Origin: a virus
IMG/VR virus record: IMGVR_UViG_3300046010_015054
Span: 96,001-160,000 of that record
Strand: one strand, 5' to 3'
Length of the DNA: 64,000 nt
Of this stretch, positions 1 to 18,900 are shown piece by piece. The notes under the pieces are model-generated. The model had not been told where the DNA came from, ran no database searches, and was given only the letters and a program-made list of their open reading frames with translations. A program made the translations under genes and the position numbers. Position 1 is the stretch's first letter. Each line of letters opens with the position of its first letter.

Positions 1-1787
1 TAAGGTCTTTCACCTTTAGGTACATTAATACCATAATTTAATTCTTTAAATTCTAACCCTAAAATATCTGTTGCAGTTGCTTGCATTGGGATAGTATTAC
101 ATTGACGAGGGTGATAATTTGGGCTTTTCCAACCCCCATTTTCGTCTCTAAACCATCCTAATTTATAATGAGTAATACATTCAACAGCTGTTCCTGGGTT
201 GGTGAATTCTATGTTTTTGTAAGCTTCTAATCCTTGGAACCAATCATTATGGAATGTAGAAAGTATAACTTTACAATTATGTTTTTTAGCAAATTCAACA
301 ACATAAGGAACCCAACCAATGGTATCACCTATTGCTTTAGATTCTACCGTAATTAAAACTTTTTGATTAGTTAAATCTAATCTACTTGCTTCTTTACCAT
401 CAATTTTTATTACCCAAGGTACATAGTACTCTGTACTACATTCAACCCACATATTATTGTTAATGGTTTGTGAATGGTGTACTTTACCGGTTGCAGAATC
501 AATAAATTCTATAAAATAACTTTTGTTAATATTTCCTAAAATTTCTACTTTAGGTTTATTTAAATAACTAATATTTATTTTATTTTTATCTTCTACTTGA
601 TTATATTCATCTAAAAATTCTTGTAAAGTATTCCGACCAATTTCAGCTACTTTATCCCAATTAAAATTTTGATGGATAATTTCAGACTCTTTATGTGCAC
701 GTTTATAATGATCTTGATAATTTACGTAAGCATCTCTCATTACACGAGCTAAATCTTCAAAATCAGGTTCATAATAAGAACCTTCTACAAATTTTCCTTT
801 ATAATTTGGATCCTTGGCAGGTAATTCTCCCCATACTTTTACAGGTAATCCTTTACCTTCAGCAAATTCCATTTGACCAGAGCATGCTGAGTAAATAGCT
901 GGAGTACCACAAGCCATAGCCTCAATTAAAGGTAAATTCCATCCTTCACTACGAGCACAAGATAAAAATACATGACCTGTTTTTAAGTATTGAATGTAAT
1001 CTTCTCTAGAAGGAAAATGTACTACTTTGATGCGAGGATCTTCTAAACCATAATGCTTTAATCTATCTTCAGTAGTTTTTAAACCATCATCTGCAAATGG
1101 GTTATCAACCGAAAGTATTAAATCAACTTTCTCATCTGGTTTGAATTCTTTAAGAAAGGTTTCAATTATTTCTTTTGTAGATTTTCTATATTCCCAACGC
1201 CCAAACATTACAAATTTAAACCTATTATCCAAATATTCTTCTGGGAGTAATAGGTAGGGTTCAATTTTAAAGATATTAGTGTCTACACCCTCAGGTACAA
1301 CTTTTACTTTTTCAGCAGGCATACCTTGCTTAATAGTACATTCAGCTTGCCATTTTGAAGGTACCCAAATTTGATCAAATTCTTTTAATTTATTAAAAAA
1401 ATTTTCAGGTTGTAAAGTAGATTCCCAAACATTATATGCAATTTTAGGACCTACGTAATTATCATAAAAATAATGATGACCCGTAGCTTCTAAAATAATA
1501 TTAACATTATGTTTAAAATTATTTTCATAATTTTTATATATAGGAGAATCTTGCCTTTCGTAATCTACAAAAAGTGTTTGTTCAACTAATAATTTTTTAT
1601 CTAAATCATTTAAATAAGGTTCATTATTATGAGGTTCATCTTTATAACCTTCCCAAGTTTTACCTGCAGGAAAATTTCTAACTTTTACATCAAGATGTTT
1701 AGATAAATGTCTAAAAAAATCTCTTGTATGATTAGCGTAACCTGTAGGGCCTATATAAGGTCCGTGTGCATAAACTTTTGGTTTCAT
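1..1787 (-). CDS. GT4 glycosyltransferase fused to an autotransporter O-heptosyltransferase (AAH/TibC-like) domain; 3' end runs off the window
   Basis: Not in the ORF track because it has no stop in the window. Hand translation from ATG at 1787 gives MKPKVYAHGPYIGPTGYANHTR...FGRWEYRK...ARSEGWNLPLIEAMACGTP (GT-B/GT4 EX7E motif), then ESKAIGDTIGWVPYVVEFAKKHNCKVILSTFHNDWF, which resembles the GD..W.PY..F...H.C segment of AAH/TibC heptosyltransferases. Confidence 0.8.
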   Translation of the reverse strand, partial: MKPKVYAHGPYIGPTGYANHTRDFFRHLSKHLDVKVRNFPAGKTWEGYKDEPHNNEPYLNDLDKKLLVEQTLFVDYERQDSPIYKNYENNFKHNVNIILEATGHHYFYDNYVGPKIAYNVWESTLQPENFFNKLKEFDQIWVPSKWQAECTIKQGMPAEKVKVVPEGVDTNIFKIEPYLLLPEEYLDNRFKFVMFGRWEYRKSTKEIIETFLKEFKPDEKVDLILSVDNPFADDGLKTTEDRLKHYGLEDPRIKVVHFPSREDYIQYLKTGHVFLSCARSEGWNLPLIEAMACGTPAIYSACSGQMEFAEGKGLPVKVWGELPAKDPNYKGKFVEGSYYEPDFEDLARVMRDAYVNYQDHYKRAHKESEIIHQNFNWDKVAEIGRNTLQEFLDEYNQVEDKNKINISYLNKPKVEILGNINKSYFIEFIDSATGKVHHSQTINNNMWVECSTEYYVPWVIKIDGKEASRLDLTNQKVLITVESKAIGDTIGWVPYVVEFAKKHNCKVILSTFHNDWFQGLEAYKNIEFTNPGTAVECITHYKLGWFRDENGGWKSPNYHPRQCNTIPMQATATDILGLEFKELNYGINVPKGERP

Positions 1788-1788
1788 A

Positions 1789-2538
1789 TTATCTCATTAT
1801 TGAACAACCCCCATCTAGTCCTCTATATCCATCAAAACCATGATAAATAGGACAAATTGGAACTCCGTGATTTCTTAAATGCTGTCTGAGTAAAGTTTCA
1901 TTAACAAACATATCATAATAGTACTGGTAATATTCAGGGTTTACAAAGATTGTTCGTAACATTTCAGGAAAGACATTATGGTAGGTTTTCATAACATCAT
2001 ATCCCCCAACAGCAAAAGTATCATTAAGTTGATCAGCCATACCCCATCTATCAGGATATTCAAAAAAATTAACTGCTTCAGGGTTTACTTTAGTAATGTC
2101 TTCTAAGAAGATACAATTTTCAGCTACTCTATGTGTCCAAAGTAAATCATATCTTGTTTTTATTACCAAATCATATTTAATACCGGAATTTTCTAACAAA
2201 TCCCAAGATCGTTTTAAAGATAACCACATTCCCATTTGGGAATTTAAGCGTTGGTTATTTTGTCCTTTTAAATCTGTAGCATCAAACTTTATTGCTTTTT
2301 CAAATAAATGTTTTTTAGGCTGATACCAATCTAATAGATTTTTGTAAGTATTTTGATCAACATTATAAACACGTTGCAATTTACCTTCATTAAAAAAATC
2401 ATACTTGTAAAAATGTTTATCAACCCAAGCATGCATATACACATCAATATCATATCGATCTAAAAACCAACGTTTTAGTTCTTTAAAACCATGTTTGTAT
2501 CTACGTGGCTGACCACTAATTGTTAAAGCTATTTTCAT
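1789..2538 (-). CDS. Putative GT-A-like glycosyltransferase (SGxPR / YDxVIxxRxD family), paralogue 1
   Basis: MKIALTISGQPR, DVYMHAW, YDLVIKTRYDL and LNDTFAVG motifs; clearly paralogous to 2535-3299. Confidence 0.55.
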   Translation of the reverse strand: MKIALTISGQPRRYKHGFKELKRWFLDRYDIDVYMHAWVDKHFYKYDFFNEGKLQRVYNVDQNTYKNLLDWYQPKKHLFEKAIKFDATDLKGQNNQRLNSQMGMWLSLKRSWDLLENSGIKYDLVIKTRYDLLWTHRVAENCIFLEDITKVNPEAVNFFEYPDRWGMADQLNDTFAVGGYDVMKTYHNVFPEMLRTIFVNPEYYQYYYDMFVNETLLRQHLRNHGVPICPIYHGFDGYRGLDGGCSIMR

Positions 2539-3299
2539 CGAATAATATGGGCATGAAAATGTTTGGTTAAACTTTCAACATAATTTACCTCTACATTATT
2601 TTTTAGCATTACATGCCATTTTAAAAGACTTTCAGCAACAGTTTTATCCGCTGTACTTGTGACAGTTTTTAACCATTCACCATAATCTGGGTCTATAAAA
2701 ATGTAGTTAAGTATATAACAAAAATAATCAGAATAAATTTCAGCAATATGAGGTCCACTAACTATAAATTGATCATCAATTTCAGATGTTCGTTGAGGGA
2801 ATCCATTAATATCTGGGTATTTAAAGCAATTATATTTGTTAGGATCTAATTGAGTAATGTCTTTTAGAAAGATACATTTAGGAGATACATACTTAGTAAA
2901 TTGAAGATCAAATCTATATCTAATAATATAATCATATTCAATACCGGATTCACGTACTAAATTATAACAAGCATGAATTGAATAAGCAGCACTTAAAATA
3001 TTATGTAATTTATAATTTAAATGAGATCCGCGAATATCGGTTTCATCAAACGGTATAGGTGTTTGAAATTCGTATGCTTTAGGTTTATATAATTTTAAAA
3101 TTTTATCATAATCACTTTGTGTAAAAGTGTATGTTTTTTTTTCTAAAAAATCATGTCCAGTTTCAAAGACTGATGTAGTATCATACCAAGTATGGATGTA
3201 AACATCACAATCATACTTGTTTAAGAACCATTTTTTTAGTTCTTTAAAACCTAAATCATAATTGCGGGGTAAACCGCTTATACAAATTGCTACTTTCAT
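2535..3299 (-). CDS. Putative GT-A-like glycosyltransferase, paralogue 2
   Basis: MKVAICISGLPR, DVYIHTW, YDYIIRYRFDL and IDDQFIVSG motifs; 4-nt overlap with the next gene. Confidence 0.55.
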   Translation of the reverse strand: MKVAICISGLPRNYDLGFKELKKWFLNKYDCDVYIHTWYDTTSVFETGHDFLEKKTYTFTQSDYDKILKLYKPKAYEFQTPIPFDETDIRGSHLNYKLHNILSAAYSIHACYNLVRESGIEYDYIIRYRFDLQFTKYVSPKCIFLKDITQLDPNKYNCFKYPDINGFPQRTSEIDDQFIVSGPHIAEIYSDYFCYILNYIFIDPDYGEWLKTVTSTADKTVAESLLKWHVMLKNNVEVNYVESLTKHFHAHIIR

Positions 3300-3910
3300 T
3301 ATCTATAATGACCTCCTCCTAACCAAAGAACAAATGATTTACGAGTACCTTTAATTACAGGTGTAACTCTATGAAGCATAAATGATGGGAAAATAATAAC
3401 AGTACCCTTACCTTTAGGACCTGTTAAAGGCATTTGCCCACCATTCCAAATTTCTAAATTACCCCCTTCATATTCTTCAGGGCCAGAAAGTTGAACTGTA
3501 ACTGAGAGTTTTCTAAAAGGCATAAATCCTTGGCTACCTATATCCATATGCCAATCATAGTGACCTTTATTAGTACCATAGTATTCAGTATATTGAATTT
3601 GTTCTGGCATAAAGTTTAGATCAAAATGATACATTTCTTTATTAGCTTCATATGCCATTAAACCAATTTTATCGTAAATCCATTTTGTATTTTCTGAAAA
3701 TGGAATCCATTTAATACTGGAATTGCGAGCATCTAAATTTTCACCTTGATCTTGTCCACCTTGCTCAGTAACAGCTGTTTGGAATTGCATTTCGGCTACT
3801 TGAGATTCAATTTGAGATAACTCATCAGTAGTAAAACCTTCTTGAAACCAATAATAATTACATTGGTTTACGGGATTTTCTAAAGGGAATGTATAATTAA
3901 CATTCATCAT
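3299..3910 (-). CDS. 2OG-Fe(II) oxygenase, prolyl-4-hydroxylase/PKHD-like
   Basis: HxD (WHMD), RKLSVTVQL, YEGG, distal His with 2OG-binding Arg (HRVTPV..GTRKSFVLW). Confidence 0.88.
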   Translation of the reverse strand: MMNVNYTFPLENPVNQCNYYWFQEGFTTDELSQIESQVAEMQFQTAVTEQGGQDQGENLDARNSSIKWIPFSENTKWIYDKIGLMAYEANKEMYHFDLNFMPEQIQYTEYYGTNKGHYDWHMDIGSQGFMPFRKLSVTVQLSGPEEYEGGNLEIWNGGQMPLTGPKGKGTVIIFPSFMLHRVTPVIKGTRKSFVLWLGGGHYR

Positions 3911-3921
3911 GATTTTTTAAA

Positions 3922-6273
3922 TTAAGGATTTGTAAAAGAAATTAAAATATATCGGGTTCCTTCGATTACAGGACGTCCCCCGTGTTTGTGAGTAATTTGA
4001 CCAGGATGAGCCATAGCATATCCTTTTCTTTGAGGTTGGATTGTTAATTTATAGCGAGGGATAAAAGTACCACCTCCTTTAAATTCATCATTTAACCTAA
4101 CATTTAATGTAATAGCTGAGCTATCGTGGTGAATATCTAAGCTACCTTGATTATTTGTATCATATTTAGCAATAAAGTTTTCACTTTTTGAAGTTTGCCA
4201 ATTATTACCTTCAAGTTCCCAAAACCAAATCCAAATAGGATAAACAAATTGTTCTAGAACTTTTTGATAGATTTTTTGCATCTTTAAACTTTCCATAGTT
4301 TGGTCTGTTGTAGGATAAAAAGTATGTCTATCAGTTTTCCATTCATTTTGTTCAGCTAAAGCTATTACTTCATCACAGAATTTTTCAGTAAATAATGGGA
4401 ATTCAATAATATTAGGACCAATTTCATCAGTCATAAGCTTATATTGTCCTTTTAAAATATAAGGATCAATATATTTTTTACACCACTCTTCCCAGTTACT
4501 ATCATCTAAAATTTCAATTATAGGTTTATTACCTTCAGTTACTCCTACACTTTTATCTTGTTCAAAATAATTAACTTTTGGAGCAGCTACTTTTAATTTA
4601 GGTAGATCAGCAAAATCTGCTAAAATATCTTGACGATGAGTCATACCAAAAGTAATTGATAAAAACTCATCTAAAGCAAATATTTTACTTTTATAACGAG
4701 GGATCCACTCTTCTACTAGCTTTTGAACACCTGAACGTGATAAAATGTAGGCGTGTGAGTTATATGAATAATCAGGCTCTACCCAATTTCTAAATCCTTC
4801 TATAGGTTTTTCTAAATCAGGTTTAAGAGCATTACGTCCTAAATAAATCATATCATATCCTTTATCTAAAAGAGATTTTATATTTTCCCAGTTTACTGGG
4901 AGTTGTTCTTTAAAATCTTCTTCTAGAATAAAAGTTATTTCTCTATCATATTCATAAGCATCAACCCAAGCATCAATATGAGCTAAGGCACATCCTACTT
5001 CTCCATCTGTTACTTCGCGATTCCACCAATGACAACTACTTTCGATTTTCCAATTTGGGTGTTTTTTAACACCAAATTTTACTAAATCTTTTTGTGTTAA
5101 AGTGCGATAATCAAAACCAGTTTTTACCCAGTAGTTATAAAAACCAGGCATAGATAATTTATCGCATTTATCTTTAATTTGCTGAGTTTCATTTAAAGCT
5201 ATAACGTAAAAATGATCTAAATTCATATTTAATTTTAATAATAAAGGTATCCAGTTTCTTATTGTTACATACCACCAGTCAAGTGAATATACGTAATTTT
5301 GTGCTAATTGCCAATTTATATTGTCATTTTCATTAAGAGCATTAAAACCATGTAATGTTTCTTTTAAACCACCCCATTCCCAAGTAATAGGTAATACTTG
5401 ATGGCCTAACATTTCTAAAGCTGTTAAGCAAAATGTTTCTTCATATGTTGAAGGATAGTACCAATATTGACTATCCGCCATTAATTTATATAATTCTTTT
5501 TCGGGTAATGTACCTAAAAATTCTACATCATCCAAACTATCTACCCATTCTTTATAATATTGATTATAATATTCTAAACCATATTCAGGAGTACAAATTT
5601 TTAAGCTAGAATCAGGGGCTTCTTGTTTAATTTGAGGCCAATCTTCTAATACTCTAGCTAAACCTCTTTCAGCATGAGATGAATAGATATATTGATTTTT
5701 ATTTTTTTGATATAATTGAGAAGTTGGTTTTGGGAAGATTAAACCTTTTATTGCTTGGGGTTCAGGAAAAGTTTTTATAATTTTGCTAGCATCAATACCA
5801 TAACCAATAATTTTAATTTTACTTTCGGTTTCTGGGTATTGTTGGAGCCAAATTTCTCTATGCCATTTAGTTAAGCATATAATATATTTAAGTTTAGGAT
5901 GGATTAATAATTCTCTATGATTAGGTATTTCTTCTCCATTCCACCAATTATAATAATCGGTATTACTAAGCCAAAATATAGAATTTTTATAATTAAAATC
6001 TTCAAATTCTTTTAAATAATGTATATAATTTATTCCAATAATAGTATCAACTGAAGATTCTTCTTGTTTAAATTGTTTAGTAGTTCTATATTTTACATTA
6101 TCAAAATCTCCAGGAATAACATTTCCAACTACCCAAATATAATATTCAGGGAGTTTGGCTAATTCTTGTGCTAAATAATAAGTGGTTTTTTCTGTACCTC
6201 CTAAACCGGTAGTTTCTATAGAAGAAGGACCCCAAGGAGTTTTGTGATAACCTGTGTATAAAACTATTTTCAT
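3922..6273 (-). CDS. Tri-domain enzyme: GT4 + GT25 (COLGALT-like) + PLOD-like lysyl hydroxylase
   Basis: N-terminal GLGGTE and PSTYEETFCLTALE (GT4). Middle GEVGCALAH..ILEED..YDMIYLGR..VEPDYSY..HAYILS (GT25/procollagen galactosyltransferase-like). C-terminal FPLFTEKFC..PTTD..HHDSS..GGGT..HPGQITHKHGG..GTRYILISF.NP (PLOD-type 2OG domain). The start is probably ATG 6273 (MKIVLYTG) rather than 6309, because 6284-6323 holds promoter and terminator elements. Confidence 0.85.
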   Translation of the reverse strand: MKIVLYTGYHKTPWGPSSIETTGLGGTEKTTYYLAQELAKLPEYYIWVVGNVIPGDFDNVKYRTTKQFKQEESSVDTIIGINYIHYLKEFEDFNYKNSIFWLSNTDYYNWWNGEEIPNHRELLIHPKLKYIICLTKWHREIWLQQYPETESKIKIIGYGIDASKIIKTFPEPQAIKGLIFPKPTSQLYQKNKNQYIYSSHAERGLARVLEDWPQIKQEAPDSSLKICTPEYGLEYYNQYYKEWVDSLDDVEFLGTLPEKELYKLMADSQYWYYPSTYEETFCLTALEMLGHQVLPITWEWGGLKETLHGFNALNENDNINWQLAQNYVYSLDWWYVTIRNWIPLLLKLNMNLDHFYVIALNETQQIKDKCDKLSMPGFYNYWVKTGFDYRTLTQKDLVKFGVKKHPNWKIESSCHWWNREVTDGEVGCALAHIDAWVDAYEYDREITFILEEDFKEQLPVNWENIKSLLDKGYDMIYLGRNALKPDLEKPIEGFRNWVEPDYSYNSHAYILSRSGVQKLVEEWIPRYKSKIFALDEFLSITFGMTHRQDILADFADLPKLKVAAPKVNYFEQDKSVGVTEGNKPIIEILDDSNWEEWCKKYIDPYILKGQYKLMTDEIGPNIIEFPLFTEKFCDEVIALAEQNEWKTDRHTFYPTTDQTMESLKMQKIYQKVLEQFVYPIWIWFWELEGNNWQTSKSENFIAKYDTNNQGSLDIHHDSSAITLNVRLNDEFKGGGTFIPRYKLTIQPQRKGYAMAHPGQITHKHGGRPVIEGTRYILISFTNP

Positions 6274-6283
6274 AAACCTATAT

Positions 6284-6314
6284 ATAATATAAATATAAAA
6301 GGGGGACATTCAAA
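6284..6314 (-). promoter_or_regulatory. Bacteroidota-type sigma70 promoter candidate (TTTG-N19-TATATTAT), overlapping an ATATTTAT motif at 6289-6296
   Basis: Same spacing as three other sites in the window; resembles the TTTG(-33)/TAnnTTTG(-7) consensus. Confidence 0.5.
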
Positions 6315-6323
6315 GTCCCCCTT
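6297..6323 (-). terminator. Intrinsic terminator after collagen chain A
   Basis: GGGGGAC/GTCCCCC stem with a 7-nt loop, followed by a T-run on the minus strand. Confidence 0.75.
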
Positions 6324-6344
6324 ATTAAAAATACTTATAAATTT

Positions 6345-9300
6345 TTAAACTAATTCTAGTTTTTCAAATTTAACATCAATTTTGCTATAGTCTACAGCAT
6401 AATAACCATTTTCAGCTATTACCACAGCGTCTTCAAATTGTGTTCCTAATAATTCTTGAGCCATTACACCAATATATCTAGTATTAGGATCATTAATGTA
6501 ATTATACTCGTAAATATTAATACCTAATTTAGATACACCTATTTTTACAATATTTTCTTTTAATCTAATATCTGATGTTTTTCTGTATTGAAGATAACCA
6601 TCGGCAAAATCTAATGTTTGTGAAAAATTTACTGTAAATAATTTAAAATTTACAGTTAAACCTATAGGTCCAGTACCTTCAGCCCCAATAAGACCTCTAG
6701 AACCAATAGGACCACGAGGGCCGATAGGACCTCTAGGACCTTGAGGACTAGAACCAACAGCACCAATAGGACCACGAGGACCAATATTACCAATAGGACC
6801 TTGAGGGCCTTGAATAGTACTAGCTGGGCCTCTATTGCCCCGAGGGCCTTGTACTCCTATAGGTCCTATAGGACCTTGTGGGCCCGGACCAATAGGACCA
6901 ATTATACCTCTAGGACCTTGGGGTGCAACGCCAATTGGGCCAATATTACCAATAGGACCAATTGGACCCCATGGACCACGAGGACCAATAGGACCTTGTA
7001 TGCCTTGTGGACCTTGTGGGCCCGGGCCTATAGGACCAATAATGCCAGTAGGTCCAATAGGACCTCTAGGACCAATGTTACCAATAGGGCCTTGAATGCC
7101 CTGTGGACCTTGTGGGCCAGGACCAATTGGACCAATATTACCAATAGGACCAATTGGACCCCATGGACCACGAGGACCAATAGGACCTTGTATGCCTTGT
7201 GGACCTTGTGGGCCCGGGCCTATAGGACCAATAATACCTTGAGGACCAATAGGACCTCTAGGGCCTACAATATCAGTTACATCTCCTGCAATGCCTTTAG
7301 GACCTTGAATGCCTGTAGGGCCTTGAATACCTTGTGGGCCTTGAGGACCAGGTCCAATAGGACCTATAATACCTTGGGGTCCTCTAGGACCAATAGGACC
7401 AATGTTACCAATAGGGCCTTGAATACCTTGTGGACCTTGAGGTCCAGGACCTATAGGGCCGATAATACCTTGAGGACCACGAGGACCAATGTTACCAATA
7501 GGGCCAATTGGGCCTATTATACCCCGTGGACCAATAGGACCAGGTCCAATATTACCAATAGTACCTTGTGGACCTATATTTCCAATTGGACCCTGAATAC
7601 CTTGAGGACCACGAGGTCCAATAGGTCCTTGTGGGCCTGGTCCAATAGGACCAATAATGCCAGTAGGTCCAATAGGACCCCAAGGACCTCGCGGACCAAT
7701 AGGGCCTATAATACCCTGAGGGCCTTGAGGACCAGGACCTATAGGGCCTATTATACCTTGAGGACCACGAGGACCAATAGGACCTTGAATATCATTTATA
7801 TCACCCGGAATACCTTTAGGACCTATAATACCTGTGGGGCCTTGAATGCCTTGTGGACCTTGTGGGCCAGGACCTATAGGACCTATAATACCCTGAGGTC
7901 CTCTAGGGCCAATAGGACCAATGTTACCAATAGGGCCTTGAATGCCCTGTGGACCTTGTGGGCCAGGACCTATAGGACCTATAATACCCTGAGGTCCTCT
8001 AGGGCCAATAGGACCAATGTTACCAATAGGACCTTGAATGCCCTGTGGACCTTGTGGGCCTGGGCCAATAGGGCCGATAATACCTTGAGGACCAATATTA
8101 CCCCGAGGACCTTGTATTCCTTGAGGGCCTTGAATACCCTGAGGTCCTTGTGGACCTGGGCCAATTGGACCTTGAATTCCAATAGGTCCAATAGGACCCC
8201 AAGGACCTCGTGGGCCAATAGGGCCTATAGTACCTTGAGGACCTTGTGGGCCCGGGCCTATAGGACCAATAATACCTTGAGGACCAATAGGACCACGAGG
8301 ACCTATAGCATCAGTTACATCTCCAGCAATACCTTTAGGACCTATAATACCTGTGGGGCCTTGAATGCCTTGTGGACCTTGAGGTCCGGGACCTATAGGA
8401 CCAATAATACCCTGAGGTCCCCGAGGACCAATAGGACCTTGTGTACCTTGCGGGCCTTGAATACCCTGAGGCCCTTGTGGGCCTGGACCAATTGGGCCTT
8501 GGATACCTAAAGGACCTCTAGGACCAATAGGACCAATGTTACCAATAGGACCTTGAATACCTCGCGGGCCTTGTGGACCCGGACCAATAGGACCTATAAT
8601 ACCTTGAGGACCACGAGGGCCAATAGGGCCTTGAAGATCACCAGTATCACCTGGGATACCTTTAGGACCTTGTATGCCTGTAGGTCCTTGGGTACCTTGC
8701 GGGCCTTGTGGACCTGGACCAATAGGACCGATAATACCTTGAGGTCCTCTAGGACCAATAGGCCCTTGAATACCTTGTGGACCCTGAATGCCCTGTGGGC
8801 CTTGAGGTCCAGGACCGATTGGACCCTGAATGCCTAAAGGTCCTCTAGGACCAATTGGGCCTATATTGCCAATAGGACCTTGAATACCTTGTGGACCTTG
8901 AGGTCCAGGGCCTATAGGACCAATAATACCTTGTGGACCTCTAGGACCAATAGGTCCCTGAGTACCTTGTGGGCCTTGTATGCCTTGTGGGCCTTGTGGT
9001 CCAGGTCCAATGGGGCCTTGAATTCCAATAGGTCCAATAGGACCCCATGGACCTATTAAACCACGAGGACCTTGAATACCTTGTGGGCCTTGTGGTCCTG
9101 GTCCAATAGGGCCTATAATACCTGTAGGACCTTGAATACCTTGAGGTCCTATTAAACCTCTTGGACCTTGTGGACCTTGTGGTCCTGGTCCAATAGGACC
9201 TATAATTCCTTGTGGTCCACGAGCGCCAATAGGACCTTGTATACCTTGTGGACCTTGTGGACCTTGTGGTCCTGGTCCAATAGGACCAATTATACCTCTT

Positions 9301-9707
9301 GGTCCTTGTAAGCCTTGTGGTCCTTGAGTACCTTGTGGACCTTGAATACCACGTGGACCTTGCGGTCCTTGATTGCCTCTAGGACCTTGTGTACCCCTAG
9401 GACCTTGTGGTCCTTGTAAATCAATTGGTGTTCCTGTTTTACTAGTAACAATTAAAGCTTCAGCAGGTGCATCAAATCGTAAAGCACCCGTTCTATTAGA
9501 AACAAGAACTGTATTAGGTACTACAAATCCAGCATTACTATTAATTTCAATACCTGTTGGTTTAATAGTAAATATATCAACACTACCACTTTGGACTGCT
9601 AAATCTCCTGTAACATTATTAAAAGTAAAATCTATAGCTTTACCATTTGAACTTTCAATAAATTCAAGGCTACCTGATTTAGGTATTATTTTAACATTTT
9701 TAGCCAT
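6345..9707 (-). CDS. Collagen-like fibre protein (chain A) with C-terminal peptidase S74 intramolecular chaperone
   Basis: About 930 aa of Gly-X-Y with periodic GP interruptions; C-terminal SDIRLKENI...IGVMAQEL...[10 protein letters not shown] is the autocleaving chaperone motif. Confidence 0.9.
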
Positions 9708-9713
9708 AGATTA

Positions 9714-12700
9714 TTAAGGGTTATAAGCTGTTAATACTCCGGCTACATAATTAAATGAAGGGTTACCTCCACTAGTATTAAGAGCAAAAGTTGTAGTAAC
9801 TCCAGTTGGTGCATTATTACCTGCTGGGCCCTGAGGACCAATGGGGCCTTGAGGACCAATAGGACCAATAGGACCAATAGCGCCTGTAGCACCTGAAGGG
9901 CCAATAGGACCTTGTGGGCCAATGGGTCCAATGTTACCAATAGGACCTTGAGCACCAGATGCACCAACAGGACCAATAGGACCCTGAATACCTTGTGGGC
10001 CTATATTTCCAATAGGACCAGTTGGGCCAATAGGACCAATAGGACCTTGAGGACCAATAGGGCCTGTAGGACCGATAGGGCCAATAGGACCAATATTACC
10101 TTGAGGGCCTTGTGGTCCAATGGGGCCAATATTACCAATTGGACCTTGGGGGCCAATAGGACCTGTAGGGCCAATAGGACCAATAGGACCTTGTGCACCA
10201 ATAGGTCCGATAGGGCCAATAGGACCAATATTACCAATTGGACCTTGAGGACCAATAGGGCCTGTAGGACCAATTGGGCCAATAGGGCCAATATTACCTT
10301 GGGGACCTTGAGGACCTATAGGACCGATATTACCAATTGGACCTTGCACACCAATAGGACCTGTAGGACCAATAGGACCGATAGGACCCTGTGGGCCGAT
10401 AGGACCAATAGGGCCTTGGGGGCCTGGAGCTTGATTATCTCCTTTAGGTCCAATTGGGCCTTGAGCGCCAATAGGGCCTTGAGGGCCAATAGGACCAGTT
10501 GGACCGATTGGACCAATAGGACCCTGTGGACCAATAGGACCAATAGGACCTATGGGACCAATATTACCAATAGGACCTTGAGGGCCAATAGGACCAGTTG
10601 GGCCAATTGGACCGATTGGACCTTGAGGACCAATTGGACCAATGTTACCAATTGGACCGATTGGACCAATAGGACCTTGAGGACCAATAGGGCCTGTAGG
10701 ACCAATAGGGCCAATAGGACCTTGTGGACCAATGGGGCCAATATTACCAATTGGACCTTGAGGACCAATAGGACCAATAGGACCAATGGGGCCAGTAGGT
10801 CCTATAGGACCAATAGGACCTTGGTTACCTTGTGGACCTTGTGGACCAATTGGACCAATAGGACCAATAGGACCTTGAGGGCCAATAGGTCCAGTAGGAC
10901 CAATGGGGCCGATAGGACCTTGAGGACCAATAGGACCGATAGGACCAATGGGGCCAGGTGCTTGGTTGTCTCCTTTAGGACCAATAGGACCTTGTACTCC
11001 AATAGGACCTTGAGGACCAATTGGACCCGTAGGACCAATAGGACCGATAGGGCCTTGAGGACCAATTGGGCCAATAGGGCCAATAGGACCAATATTACCA
11101 ATTGGACCTTGAGGACCAATAGGACCTGTAGGACCGATAGGGCCAATAGGGCCTTGGGGTCCGATAGGACCAATAGGACCTATAGGACCAATATTACCAA
11201 TTGGACCTTGGGGGCCAATAGGACCTGTAGGACCGATAGGACCGATAGGACCTTGTGGGCCGATTGGACCAATAGGACCAATTGGGCCTTGAGCTCCAAT
11301 AGGACCTTGTGGACCTATAGGACCTGTAGGACCAATAGGACCGATAGGGCCTTGGTTTCCTTGAGGACCCTGTGGGCCAATAGGACCGATAGGACCGATA
11401 GGACCTTGTGGGCCGATTGGACCAGTTGGTCCGATAGGACCAATTGGACCTTGAGGGCCGATAGGTCCAATAGGACCTTGAGGACCAGGTGCTTGGTTAT
11501 CTCCTTTAGGTCCAATAGGACCTTGTACTCCAATAGGACCTTGTGGACCAATCGGGCCAGTAGGACCAATTGGGCCAATAGGACCCTGTGGGCCAATAGG
11601 ACCAATGGGACCAATAGGGCCTTGAGCTCCAATAGGACCTTGAGGACCAATTGGACCTGTAGGACCGATAGGACCTATAGGACCTTGAGGACCTTGAGGA
11701 CCAATAGGGCCAATAGGGCCTATAGGACCTATGGGACCTTGTGGACCGATCGGACCAGTTGGACCAATTGGACCAATAGGGCCTTGGGGGCCAATCGGAC
11801 CAATAGGACCGATAGGGCCCGGAGCTTGGTTGTCTCCTTTAGGTCCAATAGGACCTTGTGCACCTATAGGACCTTGTGGGCCAATAGGACCAGTTGGGCC
11901 AATTGGACCGATTGGACCTTGAGGACCGATAGGACCTATAGGACCAATTGGGCCTTGAGCTCCAATAGGACCTTGTGGACCTATAGGGCCAGTTGGGCCA
12001 ATTGGACCTATGGGACCTTGAGGACCAATTGGACCAATAGGACCGATGGGGCCGATAGGACCTATGGGACCTTGAGGGCCAATTGGACCAGTTGGACCAA
12101 TTGGACCAATAGGACCTTGTGGGCCGATAGGACCAATCGGACCGATAGGACCAATTGGACCAATAGGACCTTGAGGACCGATAGGACCCGTAGGACCAAT
12201 TGGGCCAATAGGGCCTTGGTTACCTATAGGACCTTGTGGACCAATTGGACCTTGAGGACCGATTGGACCTTGTGGGCCGATAGGACCTGTAGGACCGATA
12301 GGACCAATTGGGCCTTGAGCACCAATAGGACCCTGTGGACCAATGGGGCCAATTGGGCCTTGTGGGCCTTGAGGACCTGTAGGACCGATAGGACCAATTG
12401 GACCTTGAGGACCGATAGGGCCAATAGGGCCGATAGGACCCTGTGGGCCAATAGGACCAATAGGACCTGTAGGGCCGATAGGACCGATAGGGCCCTGAGG
12501 ACCAATAGGACCAATAGGGCCTATGGGACCTTGTGCTCCAATAGGGCCTTGTGGTCCAATAGGACCAATAGGACCTTGTGGGCCTTGTGGACCTTGAGGA
12601 CCAATTGGACCTTGAGGACCACCACCTGTTATGGTTCCAGCTGTACCTTCTACTTCTAAAGTATTTGTACCACTATTAAACCAAACTTGTCCTGGGATTG

Positions 12701-12914
12701 GTGAAGAAGGAGAGGATCCTACAACAGGTAATACAAAAGTAGCATTATTAGCAATGGCTAAACTGCCACTATCAATAGTAGCAATGTTAACAGAACCACT
12801 TTTGATTGTTAATTGACCCGCTGATGCAAAATCAAATTTAATTTCTTTACCTACAGCAGTATCTTGGAAATTTAAGCTACCTGATTTTGGTATTATCTGT
12901 ACGTTTTTTGCCAT
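9714..12914 (-). CDS. Collagen-like fibre protein (chain B), no chaperone domain
   Basis: About 930 aa of (GPI/GPQ/GPT)n; the N-terminus [16 protein letters not shown] is nearly identical to that of chain A. Confidence 0.9.
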
Positions 12915-12929
12915 CTTTTATATATACTA

Positions 12930-12937
12930 ATAAATAT
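12930..12937 (-). promoter_or_regulatory. Putative late promoter ATATTTAT upstream of the collagen genes
   Basis: One of 16 exact copies (plus 2 variants) found just upstream of start codons. Confidence 0.7.
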
Positions 12938-15900
12938 TAGCCTTTTACGGGATATTCAACTATTAATTTCGGATCTACTTTTCTTTCTGCAAATACTACG
13001 TAATAAGCGTTTACTTCTCCACATTCACATGCTACCACGACTTGTTCAACTGACGCTGATAATACGTAGTGAGTACATGATTTTCCAATAGGTGTTAATT
13101 GTACTGATAGGCTATCATGGTATACTAAATCTTTCCAGTAATCAGGTAATGTAATTACTCCATCTCCTTCTACTTTACCTCTAATATACACACCAGTTTC
13201 TGGTCCCTCAAGCACTGAGTAGCGAAGTCTCCATCCTTCTTTTGAAGGGTGTGGTATATCAAAGTTTTTAACGTTACCATTGATTTCATTAAAGTTATTA
13301 ATATTAGAAGTTCCGGCACCATCAATATTACCAGTACCATCCATAGTAATGTTTCTAACATTACTAACATCAGTATTGTTCATATCAATGCCACCTTGAA
13401 CACTAATATCTCCGTTAACTCCTAATGTTGTGCCAGTAAATGTTAAGTTAGCTTCACCATTAATTAGACCAGCGGTACCAGTTGCGGTTAATACGTAGTT
13501 GTTAGTATTGTTGTTTATAGTAGCAGCGCCTGACGTACCTGATGAACCTGATGAGCCACTAGAACCGCTAGTACCACTAGAACCGGATGAACCTGATGAA
13601 CCGCTTGTACCTGAAGAGCCTGATGTACCACTAATGCCTATACCTGATGAACCTGAAGAACCTGATGTTCCTGAAGTGCCATTTACACCTGATAAACCTG
13701 AAGAACCAGATGTTCCAGAAGAGCCGCTTGAACCAGATGAGCCTGAGCTACCACTTGAGCCACTTGTACCTGATGAACCTGAAGTTCCTGATGAACCTGA
13801 AGTTCCTGATGAACCTGATGAGCCTGAACTGCCAGAAGATCCTGAACTGCCTGAAGTACCAGAGGAGCCTGAAGAACCACTAGTTCCTGATGAGCCTGAG
13901 CTACCTGAAGAGCCACTTGAACCTGATGTACCAGAAGAGCCTGAACTACCACTTGTGCCTGATGAGCCTGAGCTACCTGAAGATCCAGAAGAGCCACTAG
14001 TACCTGATGAACCTGAACTTCCTGACGTGCCTGATGAACCTGATGAGCCTGATGAGCCTGAAGTACCAGATGAGCCACTTGAGCCAGATGTTCCTGAAGA
14101 ACCTGAACTACCTGATGAACCTGATGAACCTGAAGTACCACTAGTTCCGTTTATACCTGATAAACCTGAAGAACCAGATGTTCCGCTTGAACCAGATGAG
14201 CCTGAGCTGCCACTTGTACCTGAAGAGCCTGAAGTTCCTGATGAACCACTAGTTCCTGAAGAGCCTGAACTACCTGAAGAACCAGAACTTCCACTAGTAC
14301 CTGATGTTCCGCTTGAACCTGAAGTACCTGATGAGCCTGAACTTCCACTTGAACCTGATGAACCTGAACTACCTGAAGTACCTGAAGTTCCTGAAGTACC
14401 ACTAGAACCAGATGTTCCTGATGAGCCTGAAGAACCAGAGCTGCCTGAAGATCCTGAAGTACCAGACGAACCTGAGCTTCCGCTAGTTCCTGATGAACCA
14501 CTAGAACCTGAGCTGCCTGATGAGCCTGATGTTCCTGAAGAACCACTTGTACCTGAAGTACCGGATGAACCACTTGAACCAGATGAACCTGAACTACCTG
14601 AAGTTCCTGATGTACCGTTAATACCACTTAAACCTGATGAGCCACTTGTACCAGATGAACCTGAGCTACCTGATGAGCCTGAAGAGCCACTAGTACCTGA
14701 AGTACCTGAACTGCCTGAAGTACCTGAACTACCGCTTGAACCTGATGAACCAGAGCTTCCGCTAGTTCCTGAGGTACCACTTGAACCTGATGTTCCTGAT
14801 GAACCACTTGAACCAGATGAACCTGAAGAGCCACTTGTACCTGAAGTACCAGATGAACCACTTGTTCCTGATGAGCCTGAAGAACCTGATGAACCAGAAG
14901 AACCACTTGTACCTGAAGTACCTGATGAACCACTAGTACCAGAAGTACCTGATGAACCTGAAGAGCCACTTGAGCCACTTGAACCAGAAGTTCCTGAAGA
15001 ACCTGAAGTACCTGAAGAACCTGAGCTACCACTTGTACCTGATGAGCCACTTGAACCTGAAGTTCCAGATGAGCCACTTGTTCCAGAAGTACCATTAATA
15101 CCACTTAAACCTGATGATCCAGATGTACCTGAGGTACCAGATGAACCTGATGATCCTGATGTGCCTGATGTTCCGCTTGAACCTGAAGTGCCTGATGTTC
15201 CTGATGAACCAGATGAACCAGAACTTCCACTAGTACCTGATGTACCGCTTGAGCCAGAAGTTCCTGATGAACCTGAGCTACCTGAAGATCCTGATGAGCC
15301 GCTAGTTCCTGAAGTTCCTGATGAACCGCTTGAACCTGATGTACCTGAAGAGCCACTTGAACCACTTGAACCGGAAGTACCACTTGTACCTGAAGTACCA
15401 TTTATACCTGAAAGGCCTGATGAACCAGATGTTCCTGAAGAACCTGAAGTTCCGCTAGTTCCTGATGAACCTGAGCTGCCTGATGTTCCTGATGAACCTG
15501 AAGTACCAGATGAGCCATCTGTACCACTAGTTCCTGATGAGCCACTAGAACCTGAACTACCACTTGAACCAGATGTTCCGCTTGAACCTGAAGTTCCGCT
15601 TGAACCTGAAGAGCCACTTGAACCACTAGTTCCTGAAGTACCAGATGAACCACTTGTTCCTGATGAACCTGAACTACCTGAACTGCCTGATGTACCGCTA
15701 GTACCTGAAGTTCCGTTTATACCGCTTAAACCTGAAGAACCTGATGTTCCTGAAGAGCCAGATGTACCTGAAGTACCTGAACTGCCTGATGAGCCCGAGC
15801 TACCACTTGTACCAGATGAACCATCTGTACCAGATGTACCACTTGAACCTGAAGAACCTGAAGTACCACTTGTACCACTTGTTCCTGAAGAACCTGAAGA

Positions 15901-18900
15901 TCCTGAAGTGCCGCTTGAACCTGAACTACCGCTTGAACCTGAAGAACCTGATGTTCCACTAGTACCTGAAGAGCCATCCGTACCTGAGGTACCTGATGAA
16001 CCAGATGAACCTGAAGTACCTGAAGTTCCGTTTATACCTGAAAGACCTGATGATCCTGAAGTACCTGAAGTACCTGAAGAACCACTAGTTCCACTTGAAC
16101 CTGATGAGCCTGAACTACCTGAGGTTCCACTTGTACCTGAAGATCCGTCTGTACCTGATGTACCTGATGAACCGCTTGTTCCTGATGAACCTGATGAACC
16201 TGATGTACCAGATGAACCTGAAGAACCACTTGTTCCTGATGAACCATCTGTACCTGAAGTACCTGAGCTACCTGAAGAACCTGAGCTACCTGAAGTGCCA
16301 GATGAACCATCTGTACCACTTGTACCCGAAGTACCTGAAGTACCATTAATACCACTTAAACCTGAAGATCCAGATGTACCTGAAGTGCCTGAACTTCCTG
16401 AAGTACCTGATGAGCCTGAGCTACCTGATGTTCCTGAAGATCCTGAAGTACCAGATGAGCCATCTGTACCAGATGTACCTGAGGAACCACTAGTTCCTGA
16501 TGAACCACTAGAACCTGAAGTTCCACTAGAGCCTGAACTACCTGAAGTACCACTTGAGCCATCTGTACCTGAAGTACCAGATGAACCAGATGATCCTGAG
16601 CTGCCTGAAGTACCAGATGAGCCATCTGTACCGCTTGTGCCTGAAGTACCTGAAGTACCATTAATACCACTTAAGCCAGAAGAACCACTTGTTCCTGAGC
16701 TACCTGAAGTACCACTTGTTCCTGAAGAACCTGAGCTACCACTTGTACCACTAGTTCCTGATGAACCATCTGTACCTGAGGTACCGCTTGAACCTGATGT
16801 TCCTGATGAGCCACTTGAACCCGAAGTTCCAGATGAACCAGAACTACCTGAAGTGCCTGAAGAACCATCTGTACCAGATGTTCCTGAAGATCCTGAACTA
16901 CCTGAGCTACCACTAGTGCCTGAAGTACCTGAGCTACCATCTGTACCACTTGAACCTGAAGTTCCAGAAGTACCACTTGTTCCGTTTATACCTGATAAAC
17001 CAGAAGAACCACTTGTTCCGCTTGTACCTGAAGAACCATCTGTACCACTTGTACCAGATGAACCAGATGTACCACTTGAGCCACTAGTTCCTGAAGATCC
17101 GTCTGTACCTGAAGTTCCTGAAGAACCGCTAGTACCTGATGAGCCTGAACTACCACTTGTGCCTGATGAGCCTGAACTACCTGATGTACCTGATGAACCA
17201 TCTGTGCCGCTTGTACCAGATGAACCTGAACTACCACTAGTACCTGAAGTACCTGAAGAACCATCTGTACCTGAAGTACCTGATGAACCACTTGTACCTG
17301 AAGTGCCATTTATACCTGAAAGACCTGAGCTACCTGATGTGCCACTAGTACCTGAAGTACCATCTGTACCACTTGTACCAGAAGTGCCACTTGTACCCGA
17401 AGAACCATCTGTACCTGAGGTGCCAGATGAACCATCTGTCCCTGAAGTTCCTGATGAACCTGAAGATCCAGATGTTCCTGATGAACCACTTGAACCAGAT
17501 GTACCTGAAGTACCTGAAGAGCCATCTGTACCTGAAGTACCGCTTGAACCATCAGTACCTGAAGTACCACTTGTGCCGGATTCACCTGAGGTTCCTGATG
17601 AACCACTTGTACCTGAGGTGCCGTTTATACCGGATAAACCTGAAGATCCGCTGGTTCCGCTTGTGCCTGAAGAACCATCTGTACCAGAAGTACCAGATGA
17701 GCCAGATGTTCCGGATTCACCACTTGTACCAGATGAACCATCTGTACCAGAAGTGCCTGAAGTACCTGATGTACCATTTATACCTGAAAGACCAGATGAA
17801 CCAGAGGTACCAGAAGAACCATCTGTACCCGAAGTACCAGAAGTGCCACTAGAACCATCTGTACCCGAAGTACCTGAAGAACCATCGGTACCACTTGTAC
17901 CTGATGAACCACTAGTACCTGAAGTACCATTAATACCACTTAATCCCGAACTTCCACTTGTTCCGCTTGTACCTGAAGATCCGTCTGTACCTGAAGTACC
18001 CGAAGAACCGCTTGTACCTGATTCACCGCTTGTACCCGAAGAGCCATCAGTTCCTGAAGTACCAGAAGTACCGCTTGTTCCGTTTATACCTGAAAGGCCT
18101 GAAGAGCCTGAAGTGCCAGATGAACCATCTGTACCAGATGTGCCTGATGAACCACTTGTGCCAGAAGTACCTGAAGAACCGTCTGTACCTGAAGTACCGC
18201 TTGAGCCATCAGTACCTGAGGTACCACTTGTACCTGAGGTTCCATTAATACCGCTTAAACCTGATGAACCTGATGTACCACTTGAACCATCTGTACCAGA
18301 TGTACCAGAAGAACCACTAGTTCCTGATGAACCAGATGTACCTGAACTACCATCTGTACCTGAAGTGCCACTTGAGCCATCAGTACCTGAAGTGCCACTT
18401 GTTCCGTTTATACCTGAAAGGCCTGAAGAGCCTGAAGTGCCACTTGTACCAGATGAACCATCTGTACCAGATGTGCCTGATGTTCCGCTTATACCTGAAC
18501 TACCATCTGTACCTGAAGTACCAGATGAACCATCTGTTCCTGAAGTTCCTGATGTGCCGCTTGTTCCGTTTATACCAGACAAACCAGAACTACCTGAAGT
18601 GCCACTTGAGCCATCAGTACCTGAAGTTCCTGATGAACCACTTGTACCACTTGTACCACTTGTGCCTGATGAGCCATCTGTACCTGATGTTCCTGAAGAA
18701 CCATCTGTACCACTTGTACCAGAGGTTCCATTAATTCCTGAAAGGCCTGAACTACCACTAGTACCTGAAGTGCCATCTGTACCACTTGTACCAGAAGTAC
18801 CACCTGTACCTGAAGTACCACTTGAACCATCTGTACCTGATGTACCTGAAGTACCATCTGTACCACTAGTTCCAGAAGTACCATTTATACCACTTAAACC

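What the first reader, a model, noticed from the sequence alone, without database searches (positions are those of the whole stretch)
6345..12914. Two collagen chains in exact triplet register: a possible heterotrimeric phage collagen
Seen: the chains differ in residue usage (A: GPR/GII/GIQ/GPW; B: almost only GPI/GPQ), yet the periodic Gly-Pro dipeptide interruptions of A fall at the positions of the GPT triplets of B. Intervals run 10, 10, 11, 11... units in both, with 7 markers before the first Lys and even a shared 5-unit interval near the C-terminus. Each collagen domain has exactly four Lys, all as GPKG next to a helix break. Lys codon spacings are 327/519/519 nt in A and 333/531/531 nt in B, which equals 37/59/59 triplet units in both once the GP deletions and one insertion are counted. 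Inference: register maintained despite sequence divergence implies co-assembly, as an A/B heterotrimer (like animal collagens I and IV) or two laterally matched helices. Prokaryotic and phage collagens are normally taken to be homotrimers.
Basis: partly seen in the sequence, partly recalled or inferred. Interest (0 to 1): 0.93.

Follow-up and report, generated by a model that had tools for sequence, protein, structure and literature searches.

The report
Two co-evolving phage collagen chains
Two neighbouring genes of an uncultured T4-like phage encode different collagen chains whose repeat architecture has changed in lock-step in related phages, so they almost certainly build one fibre together, most likely as a mixed triple helix, a design so far documented only for animal collagens.

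Summary
Chain A (6345-9707, minus strand) and chain B (9714-12914, minus strand) are old paralogues. Both have a 98-residue N-terminal domain, about 285 Gly positions and a 29-residue C-terminal cap. A's 24 Gly-Pro (G1G) breaks sit exactly where B has its 25 GPT triplets, and the four GPKG lysines fall at equal unit counts.

Two related uncultured phages have different unit patterns (34 and 21 units), and there too A and B match unit by unit (permutation p<=1e-5 each). One of them has the same three-unit duplication in both genes. The A/B split predates these phages.

Lys-to-Asp pairs that are split between the chains fall at the offsets of in-helix axial contacts. The register with A leading (A.B.B) is best or tied best in all five pairs counted.

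Three things count against a mixed helix:
- The trimeric S74 chaperone is on one chain only.
- A is one residue shorter per unit, which needs a bulge in B.
- Three contigs are mismatched by whole units.

Odds: co-assembly about 0.8, of which mixed triple helix about 0.48 and paired homotrimers about 0.3. Nothing has been shown physically. Earlier unchecked notes of this scan report similar candidates in other phage genomes. I found no published case.

The parts
9714..12914 (-). Chain B gene, 1066 aa. Almost only GPI/GPQ triplets, with 25 GPT markers and no Gly-X-Y break except at the four Lys sites.
   Evidence: (PF01391 E 2.9e-120)
6345..9707 (-). Chain A gene, 1120 aa. [18 protein letters not shown] triplets with 24 G1G (Gly-Pro) breaks. 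It starts 6 nt after the stop of B.
   Evidence: (PF01391 E 2.5e-89)
12621..12914 (-). B N-terminal non-collagen domain (residues 1-98), homologous to that of A.
   Evidence: (45% identity over 87 aa)
9414..9707 (-). A N-terminal non-collagen domain (residues 1-98). All-beta in a monomer model, with no clear solved relative.
9804..12620 (-). B collagen domain (residues 99-1037).
6663..9413 (-). A collagen domain (residues 99-1015).
9717..9803 (-). B C-terminal cap, 29 aa.
6576..6662 (-). A C-terminal cap, 29 aa, homologous to B's cap. It would become the C-terminus after S74 self-cleavage.
6348..6575 (-). Peptidase_S74 intramolecular chaperone domain of A, starting at Ser1045 (SDIRLKEN).
   Evidence: (PF13884, 27.6 bits, cut-off 22)
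7296..8663 (-). Span of the four Lys codons of A's collagen domain: 8661-8663, 8334-8336, 7815-7817, 7296-7298. Each is GPKG followed by Asp at +5 and a +1 break.
10443..11840 (-). Span of the four Lys codons of B's collagen domain: 11838-11840, 11505-11507, 10974-10976, 10443-10445. Each is GPKGD followed by a G5G break.
3922..6309 (-). Context: next gene downstream, 795 aa. It fuses a GT4 glycosyltransferase, a COLGALT1-like GT25 domain and an LH3/PLOD-like lysyl hydroxylase. It probably modifies the GPKG lysines.

Best explanation
A and B are partner chains of one collagenous virion fibre of an uncultured T4-like myophage. They most likely wind into a mixed triple helix, with A as the leading strand. 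A.B.B fits best; A.A.B is not excluded.

Shown:
- The two genes are ancient paralogues.
- They are always adjacent, in the order B then A.
- Their unit architecture changes in lock-step between phages.

Inferred:
- The homologous N-terminal domains and 29-residue caps hold the three strands together.
- After each marker both chains restart in phase.
- The one extra residue of B (the invariant Thr of GPT) is bulged out opposite A's missing residue. This gives a regularly spaced, one-sided hinge about every 9.4 nm.
- Lys at Y positions forms axial salt bridges with Asp at X positions across chains (A to B at +2, B to A at +5). These clamp the helix next to the breaks and fix the register.
- The GPKG lysines are also candidate substrates of the adjacent lysyl-hydroxylase/glycosyltransferase fusion.
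For: 1. Exact unit-by-unit match in the window.

2. Co-variation in relatives. L005 has 34 units. A runs 29x10,32,32,29x6,30,27,30,27,27,30,27x5,24,27,27,30, and B is the same with +1 or 0 per unit. L027 has 21 units, and B is A+1 in every unit. Permutation p<=1e-5 each.

3. Orthology. The A and B clades of the N-terminal domain are each supported (95/86 and 95/93). The split therefore predates the divergence of the window phage and L026-L031. L005's chains are unresolved in that tree and are assigned by marker type.

4. Parallel duplication. In L027, units 12-14 were duplicated to 15-17 in both genes. DNA identity of the copies is .93/1.0/.94 in A and .94/.89/.81 in B, against a background of .6-.8. 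The A and B units themselves are dissimilar, so this is not gene conversion.

5. Unit types correspond (Mantel r .69-.77). In L005, Asp replaces Asn in A only in the four units where B carries Lys.

6. Contact geometry. Over 101 distinct unit pairs, Lys(Y) in A to Asp/Glu(X) in B lies at +2 in 14 of 15 cases. B to A lies at +5 in 7 of 11. These are the offsets of axial pairs for leading-to-next and trailing-to-leading strands (geometry from PMC12086834 plus the one-residue stagger). 'Split KGD' units, with Lys only in A and Asp only in B at +2, recur in L027, L029, L030 and L031.

7. Register count:
- window: A.B.B 12 of 12 Lys paired, against A3 4 and B3 8
- L005: A.B.B or A.A.B 4, all others 0
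- L027: A.B.B 9
- L029 and L030: A.B.B tied best with A.B.A
- the three B-leading registers score lowest among the mixed ones in every pair

8. Predicted N-terminal trimer. A(1-110) with two B(1-110) scored 0.80, best of 3 controls 0.00. This mark was reached by 58 of 80 solved complexes and 2 of 110 mismatched pairs. Runs agree in at least 94% of contacts and partner pLDDT is at least 81. The chains are paralogues, so this shows compatibility, not preference over homotrimers.

9. Precedent. The C1q ABC helix has Gly-X-Y discontinuities in chains A and C only (PMC11869133).
Against: 1. The Peptidase_S74 chaperone is on A only in the window. By my own knowledge of endosialidase-type fibres it works as a trimer, which fits A3 better than A.B.B.

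2. A is one residue shorter than B in almost every unit. A mixed helix therefore needs a bulge or local non-helical hinge about 24 times. No structure shows this.

3. Three contigs are mismatched by whole units, with A always the shorter chain:
- L026: B has a four-unit duplicated block (88% DNA identity between the copies) that A lacks.
- L028: A lacks three units.
- L030: A lacks one unit.

4. The number of independent split-charge events is small, about three lineages. Part of the +2 signal follows from the shared ancestry of the Lys position.

5. In more distant pairs (L010, L019) one chain carries globular inserts and many +1/+2 breaks opposite an unbroken partner.

6. There are no protein data at all.
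Confidence: 0.48

Rival explanations
1. Paired homotrimers. A3 and B3 fold separately, and S74 nucleates A3. They then lie side by side in register as one composite fibre or bundle. They touch at every marker (A's G1G kink against B's GPT) and at the Lys/Asp sites. Unit numbers and lengths must therefore stay matched.
For: - S74 sits on one chain only. In L031 it sits on B instead. This is easy to explain if each chain trimerises alone.
- B alone is a perfect unbroken Gly-X-Y rod (258 triplets in L028).
- No register conflict arises from the one-residue difference.
- Distant pairs carry globular inserts in one chain only.
- Whole-unit mismatches would be tolerated more easily.
- The co-variation is explained equally well.
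Against: - Side-by-side packing does not predict the specific +2 (A to B) and +5 (B to A) offsets. It also does not predict the consistent advantage of A-leading registers in five pairs.
- A's Asp at +5 instead of +2 pairs only one Lys in three in A3.
- With A one residue shorter per unit, the sites would drift by about 6 nm along straight rods.
- To my knowledge, no such heterotypic two-helix fibre is known in phages.
Confidence: 0.3
2. Independent fibres under a common ruler. A3 and B3 never touch. Both must have the same length and period because they attach through homologous N-terminal domains to equivalent sites and must reach or bind the same periodic target.
For: - Homologous anchors and caps.
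- Equal total lengths also in more distant pairs and in three-gene sets.
- Mismatched contigs exist.
Against: - A length constraint does not explain identical order of 24-, 27- and 30-residue units.
- It does not explain the parallel duplication of the same three units.
- It does not explain the invariant Thr in B opposite each break in A.
- It does not explain the Lys/Asp co-substitution in the same units.
Confidence: 0.12
3. No selection for a match. The shared register is a relic of the duplication, is kept by gene conversion between A and B, or is an assembly artefact of repeats.
For: - The first seven units (29,29,32x4, then a longer unit) are shared by the window and L027 and may be ancestral.
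- In L028 a collapse of near-identical repeats is possible.
Against: - Three different architectures are each matched within a phage, although the A and B clades are older than the window/L026-L031 phages.
- A and B units are only 64-67% identical in DNA, with saturated synonymous sites and no converted tracts.
- Repeats within a gene differ by 20-30%, so they assemble unambiguously.
- An artefact would break a match between two separate genes, not create one.
Confidence: 0.04

Closest known systems
Animal heterotrimeric collagens and C1q (type I [a1]2a2, type IV, C1q A/B/C)
   Same: - Paralogous chains of equal Gly-X-Y length.
- Interruptions at matched levels that need not be present or equal in every chain. 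In C1q the discontinuity is in chains A and C only (PMC11869133).
- Terminal non-collagen domains (PMC8968730).
- Inter-chain Lys-Asp/Glu pairs.
- A dedicated Lys hydroxylase/glycosyltransferase encoded next door, LH3/COLGALT1-like.
   Different: - Viral origin.
- Almost no charged residues.
- About 24 regularly spaced one-residue mismatches.
- No homology of the terminal domains to animal NC domains.
- Mixed assembly is not shown physically.
Prokaryotic and phage collagen-like proteins (Scl1/Scl2, BclA, phage tail-fibre collagen motifs)
   Same: - Gly-X-Y rods without the animal machinery.
- Flanked by trimerising domains.
- GPT triplets that may be O-glycosylated (PMC11923368).
- Fibre role on a surface.
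   Different: Those are described as homotrimers (PMC8968730). Here two distinct chains co-evolve unit by unit.
Designed register-specific collagen heterotrimers (axial charge or cation-pi pairs)
   Same: The composition and register with the most N-to-C axial pairs (cation at Y, partner at X of the next triplet) is favoured (PMC12086834). Here A.B.B maximises such pairs.
   Different: This is a natural sequence with few charged sites per 900 residues. Stability has not been measured.
Tail fibres and spikes with a C-terminal Peptidase_S74 intramolecular chaperone (endosialidase type, PF13884)
   Same: A ends in an S74 domain with the Ser...Lys motif. Cleavage before Ser1045 would leave a 29-residue cap equal in length to B's.
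   Different: Known cases are homotrimers, with the chaperone on every chain (own knowledge). Here it is on one of two partner chains. It sits on the other chain in L031 and on neither in L005 and L027.

Membership tests
Collagen triple-helix repeat proteins (PF01391) | Gly at every third residue over long runs, with Pro-rich X/Y positions | tested here: met
   Pfam E 2.5e-89 (A) and 2.9e-120 (B). Triplet parsing.
Heterotrimeric collagen (animal type, C1q type) | Two or three distinct paralogous chains with equal numbers of triplet positions and interruptions at matched levels | tested here: met
   Gly counts 285 against 286. All 24-25 markers and four Lys sites coincide. The match co-varies in L005 and L027.
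Heterotrimeric collagen (animal type, C1q type) | Inter-chain contacts that favour a mixed composition and a single register | tested here: met
   A.B.B gives the most axial Lys-Asp/Glu pairs, or ties for the most, in five pairs. The B-leading registers score lowest among the mixed ones. Offsets are +2 and +5. There are few independent sites.
Heterotrimeric collagen (animal type, C1q type) | A non-collagen domain that selects the chains | tested here: inconclusive
   The mixed N-terminal trimer is predicted with score 0.80 against best control 0.00. The chains are paralogues and homotrimers were not compared.
Heterotrimeric collagen (animal type, C1q type) | Both chains physically present in one triple helix | not testable with these tools
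   Needs co-expression with native MS, cross-linking or NMR.
Homotrimeric prokaryotic/phage collagen-like fibre | One chain type per helix, folded from its own trimerisation module | tested here: inconclusive
   S74 on A only fits A3. The co-variation and split charge pairs are not expected for independent homotrimers.
Peptidase_S74 intramolecular chaperone (PF13884) | Profile match above the curated cut-off and the Ser/Lys motif at the cleavage site | tested here: met
   27.6 bits against a cut-off of 22. SDIRLKEN starts at Ser1045. Cleavage itself was not tested.
Collagen lysyl hydroxylase / Hyl-galactosyltransferase (LH3/PLOD, mimivirus L230, COLGALT1), for the neighbouring gene | Sequence similarity to the LH domain and the GT25 domain, and an Fe(II)-binding His-x-Asp...His | tested here: met
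   Residues 605-795 match LH3 at E 9e-26 and L230 at 2e-25. Residues 398-557 match COLGALT1 at 6e-13. HHD and a later His are visible in the C-terminal domain. Activity was not tested.

The most novel reading that the evidence does not exclude
A natural two-chain (A.B.B or A.A.B) collagen heterotrimer encoded by a bacteriophage. Its register would be fixed by Lys-Asp pairs split between the chains. It would carry a built-in one-residue mismatch every 10-11 triplets, giving regularly spaced one-sided hinges. It would be serviced by the phage's own LH3/COLGALT-like lysine-modifying enzyme. Related phages with three orthologous chains would make ABC versions.
Probability: 0.45. Interest if true: 0.9.

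Novelty: new variant of a known kind. Interest (0 to 1): 0.8.

Why it matters
Collagen heterotrimers are regarded as an animal invention, and prokaryotic and viral collagen-like proteins are described as homotrimers (PMC8968730). A phage pair whose repeat indels, duplications and charged residues co-evolve would be a natural mixed-chain collagen outside animals.

It would offer a small two-gene bacterial-type system, possibly expressible in E. coli. Such a system could be used to study chain selection, register control, interruptions and Lys hydroxylation/glycosylation. These are hard to study with animal collagens.

The result also shows that comparing the interruption patterns of neighbouring fibre genes can reveal partner chains in metagenomes.

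Tried and rejected
- No cultured relative: tblastn of B's N-terminal domain against 50,697 phage records found no match.
- The search for homologous proteins on residues 1-98 returned nothing at E<=1e-3. I could not size the family or find any name for it.
- The monomer model of the N-terminal domain (pLDDT 77.6) gave no PDB match at E<=1e-3. There were only weak resemblances to trimeric phage fibre and spike proteins. The attachment site on the virion is therefore unknown.
- Dating the A/B split against the repeat amplification from synonymous sites failed because all comparisons are saturated.
- Gene conversion between A and B is rejected.
- The long antisense ORFs inside both genes (6741-8510 and 9912-12659, plus strand) are by-products of the GGN-CCN repeat composition.
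- Chain C (12937-20865) has a different N-terminus and no matching period, so I treat it as a separate fibre.
- The stoichiometry (A.B.B or A.A.B) could not be decided.
Full report
**Context.** The window is part of a 170,105-bp IMG/VR virus record with about 30% G+C. The major capsid protein (27374-29113, minus strand) is 54% identical to that of Flavobacterium phage vB_FspM_immuto and is related to T4-type capsids. Three collagen-like genes follow the neck-region genes on the minus strand:
- C: 12937-20865, 2642 aa, Gly-Ser/Thr triplets
- B: 9714-12914, 1066 aa
- A: 6345-9707, 1120 aa

A starts 6 nt after B's stop. The next gene downstream encodes a 795-aa fusion protein. Residues 605-795 match the lysyl-hydroxylase domain of human LH3 (E 9e-26) and mimivirus L230 (2e-25). 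Residues 398-557 match procollagen galactosyltransferase COLGALT1 (6e-13), and the N-terminal third is a GT4 glycosyltransferase. A small 2OG-Fe(II) oxygenase and further glycosyltransferases follow.

**The observation.**
- Both chains have a homologous 98-residue N-terminal domain (45% identity) and a collagen domain that starts at residue 99.
- Both have a 29-residue C-terminal cap. A continues into a Peptidase_S74 chaperone that begins at Ser1045, so self-cleavage would leave the two chains ending flush.
- A has 24 Gly-Pro (G1G) breaks and B has 25 GPT triplets. The marker-to-marker lengths are the same series in both, with B one residue longer per ordinary unit and equal in the four 45-residue Lys units.
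- A's last long unit contains a degenerate marker, so the match runs to the end (32+14 against 33+15).
- All 25 Thr of B's collagen domain are in the markers. Gly counts are 285 and 286.
- Shuffling unit order never reproduced the match (p<=1e-5).

**Age of the repeats.** Units within a gene are only 73-78% identical in DNA. A against B is 64-67% identical, slightly higher for units of the same index. Four-fold sites are near saturation in all comparisons. The arrays are therefore old and not homogenised. The chain-specific features (GP against GPT in every unit) are held by selection on the protein. Unit-type structure is shared between the genes (Mantel r=0.76). For example, A's five GPW units lie opposite B's GPQGPQGN-type units (four exact, one variant).

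**Relatives.** Searches used the downstream enzyme and an N-terminal alignment, in viral and metagenome contigs. They gave 38 loci. None is a cultured phage.

Three architectures match perfectly:
- the window, 24-25 units
- L005 (also fetched as L032), 34 units, including a run 30,27,30,27,27,30,27x5,24,27,27,30 that is identical in both genes. In that run A carries an extra +1 break (GTTV) that offsets its GP deletion.
- L027, 21 units, with B one residue longer than A in every unit

The partial B genes of L029 and L031 also match as far as they are present. The first unit also changes concordantly: 47/51 in the window against 29/33 in L027.

A maximum-likelihood tree of the N-terminal domains puts the window and L026-L031 chains into separate A and B clades (95/86 and 95/93). 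L005's two chains are unresolved in that tree; I call them A-like and B-like by their marker type. The duplication is therefore older than the window/L026-L031 phages, and the architectures changed afterwards in both genes alike.

In L027, units 12-14 and 15-17 are a tandem duplication in both genes. DNA identity of the copies is .93/1.0/.94 in A and .94/.89/.81 in B, against a background of .6-.8. The A and B units there are quite unlike each other, which excludes gene conversion.

**Exceptions.** Three contigs are mismatched by whole units, and A is always the shorter chain.
- L028 is about 92% identical to L027. It has the duplication in B but not in A. A's copies are the younger ones, so this may be the intermediate state. 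It may also be a collapsed assembly.
- L030 lacks one A unit that L029 has. The copies are 85% identical.
- L026 has a four-unit duplicated block in B (88% identity between the copies) with no counterpart in A. This looks real.

I read these as transitional or mildly deleterious states. They also show that a mismatch is not immediately lethal.

**Mixed helix or paired helices.** In a triple helix the stabilising axial pair joins a cation at Y to a partner at X of the next triplet of the following strand. This is +2 in sequence and i to i+3 along the axis (PMC12086834). With the one-residue stagger, the trailing-to-leading contact falls at +5 (my derivation).

Units were aligned from the residue after each marker. 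Over 101 distinct unit pairs:
- Lys(Y) of A faces Asp/Glu(X) of B at +2 in 14 of 15 cases.
- Lys(Y) of B faces Asp/Glu(X) of A at +5 in 7 of 11 cases.

Some of this follows from the shared Lys position. Three features do not:
- In L027, L029, L030 and L031 there are units with Lys only in A and Asp only in B at +2.
- In L005, Asp replaces Asn in A at +5 in exactly the four units where B has Lys.
- In the window, A has moved its Asp from +2 to +5 in all four Lys units. This pairs only one Lys in three in A3, but completes 12 of 12 pairs in A.B.B.

A.B.B is best or tied best in all five pairs counted, and the three B-leading registers score lowest among the mixed ones. KGD/KGE pairs next to interruptions have been proposed as folding clamps (PMC11923368). 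That fits the Lys sites sitting beside the only true breaks.

A structure prediction of A(1-110) with two copies of B(1-110) scored 0.80, best of 3 controls 0.00. This mark was reached by 58 of 80 solved complexes and 2 of 110 mismatched pairs. The runs agree in at least 94% of contacts and the partner's pLDDT is at least 81. Because the chains are paralogues, this shows only that a mixed N-terminal trimer is compatible.

**Against a mixed helix.**
- S74 chaperones act as trimers in the known fibres (own knowledge), yet only A carries one here. It is on A in L026, on B in L031, and on neither chain in L005, L027 and L030.
- A is one residue short per unit, which breaks the Gly phase unless B's Thr (or a neighbour) bulges at every marker. 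The contact offsets work only with a restart in phase after each marker. That is consistent with such a bulge but does not prove it.
- C1q offers a precedent for discontinuities in only some chains of a heterotrimer (PMC11869133).
- Paired homotrimers lying in register would explain the co-variation as well. They would fit S73-free folding less awkwardly, since S74 on one chain then needs no special account. They do not predict the +2/+5 asymmetry.

**Wider family.**
- More distant pairs share the N-terminal domain and show the same principle. In L010-L014 the first 11 segments match (13/12,2,9,2,9,9,2,9,9,9,2), with G4G breaks in one chain and G5G in the other. After a PA14-like insert in one chain, the remaining collagen lengths are 539 and 551 residues.
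- In L019 both chains have 14 breaks separated by 13 runs of four triplets. The part before them has 447 against 444 collagen residues, although one chain holds three inserted domains of about 50 residues.
- L035 gene 1 and L015 gene 2 share an 18-segment run. Both contigs carry this family's gene pair, but they are separate contigs.
- Three-gene sets have near-equal lengths that differ between phages: L004 780/789/788, L021 657/660/679, L037 686/688/691. They form three orthologous clades.
- I saw sets of one, two or three genes with this N-terminal domain, never four.

[quoted passage not shown] My searches found no report of a natural heterotrimeric phage collagen. Earlier unchecked notes of this scan describe similar two- and three-chain candidates in other phage and giant-virus genomes, so this is a recurring pattern in the scan's data.

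- Co-assembly of A and B is well supported (about 0.8).
- A mixed triple helix is the best single explanation (about 0.48).
- Paired homotrimers are the main rival (about 0.3).
- Everything rests on sequence analysis and one prediction.

Noticed in passing
window 3922-6309 (-): A 795-aa fusion of a GT4 glycosyltransferase, a COLGALT1-like GT25 domain and an LH3/mimivirus-L230-like lysyl hydroxylase, directly downstream of the collagens. HHD and a later His are present. Orthologues follow the collagen genes in L001-L005.
   Followed up: partly
window 3299-3910 (-) and 3-3299 (-): A 203-aa 2OG-Fe(II) oxygenase (PF13640, E 1e-13), possibly a prolyl hydroxylase, followed by two weak DUF7796 ORFs (below Pfam's cut-off) and a GT4 glycosyltransferase. 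Together they look like a fibre-modification cassette. Pro in A and B is almost always at X, not Y, so the substrate is unclear.
   Followed up: no
window 12937-20865 (-): Chain C, 2642 aa of Pro-free Gly-Ser/Thr triplets. It has a different N-terminus and a C-terminal domain matching phrog_17490. C-like genes precede the A/B-type genes in L017, L021, L023, L027, L028, L036 and L037.
   Followed up: no
L004 2878-9987; L021 (=L038) 6033-12040; L037 7909-14168; L036 7736-11089: Sets of three adjacent collagen genes with this N-terminal domain. Lengths are near-equal within a phage (780/789/788, 657/660/679, 686/688/691) but differ between phages. They form three orthologous clades. In L037 all three chains have a break about 490 residues into the helix, followed by 15-16 triplets. 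These are candidate ABC fibres.
   Followed up: partly
L010 1616-8765 (also L011-L014); L019 7433-13261; L015/L034/L035: More distant gene pairs in which the second chain carries inserted globular domains inside the collagen (PA14-like, three CBM-like repeats of about 50 aa, a large C-terminal lectin-like domain). The first chain is plain collagen. Break patterns and total collagen lengths still match.
   Followed up: partly
L031 2-1786; L026 3257-5968; window 6348-6575: The S74 chaperone module, with nearly the same C-terminal sequence, sits on chain A in the window and L026, on chain B in L031, and on neither in L005, L027 and L030. It appears to move between the two genes behind the shared 29-residue cap.
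   Followed up: partly
L016 2-13936: Three adjacent collagen genes of 1262-1330 aa. At least two have S74-like C-termini. All share a repeated 13-2-3-2 triplet pattern with the same break types. Only the third has the MAKN-type N-terminus.
   Followed up: no
window 26236-27051 (-) and 56199-57548 (-): Two further, shorter collagen-like genes (271 and 449 aa; PF01391) with unrelated N-termini.
   Followed up: no
window 23770-25210 (-): PhoH-like ATPase and phosphatidylserine-decarboxylase-like genes lie between the capsid and neck genes.
   Followed up: no
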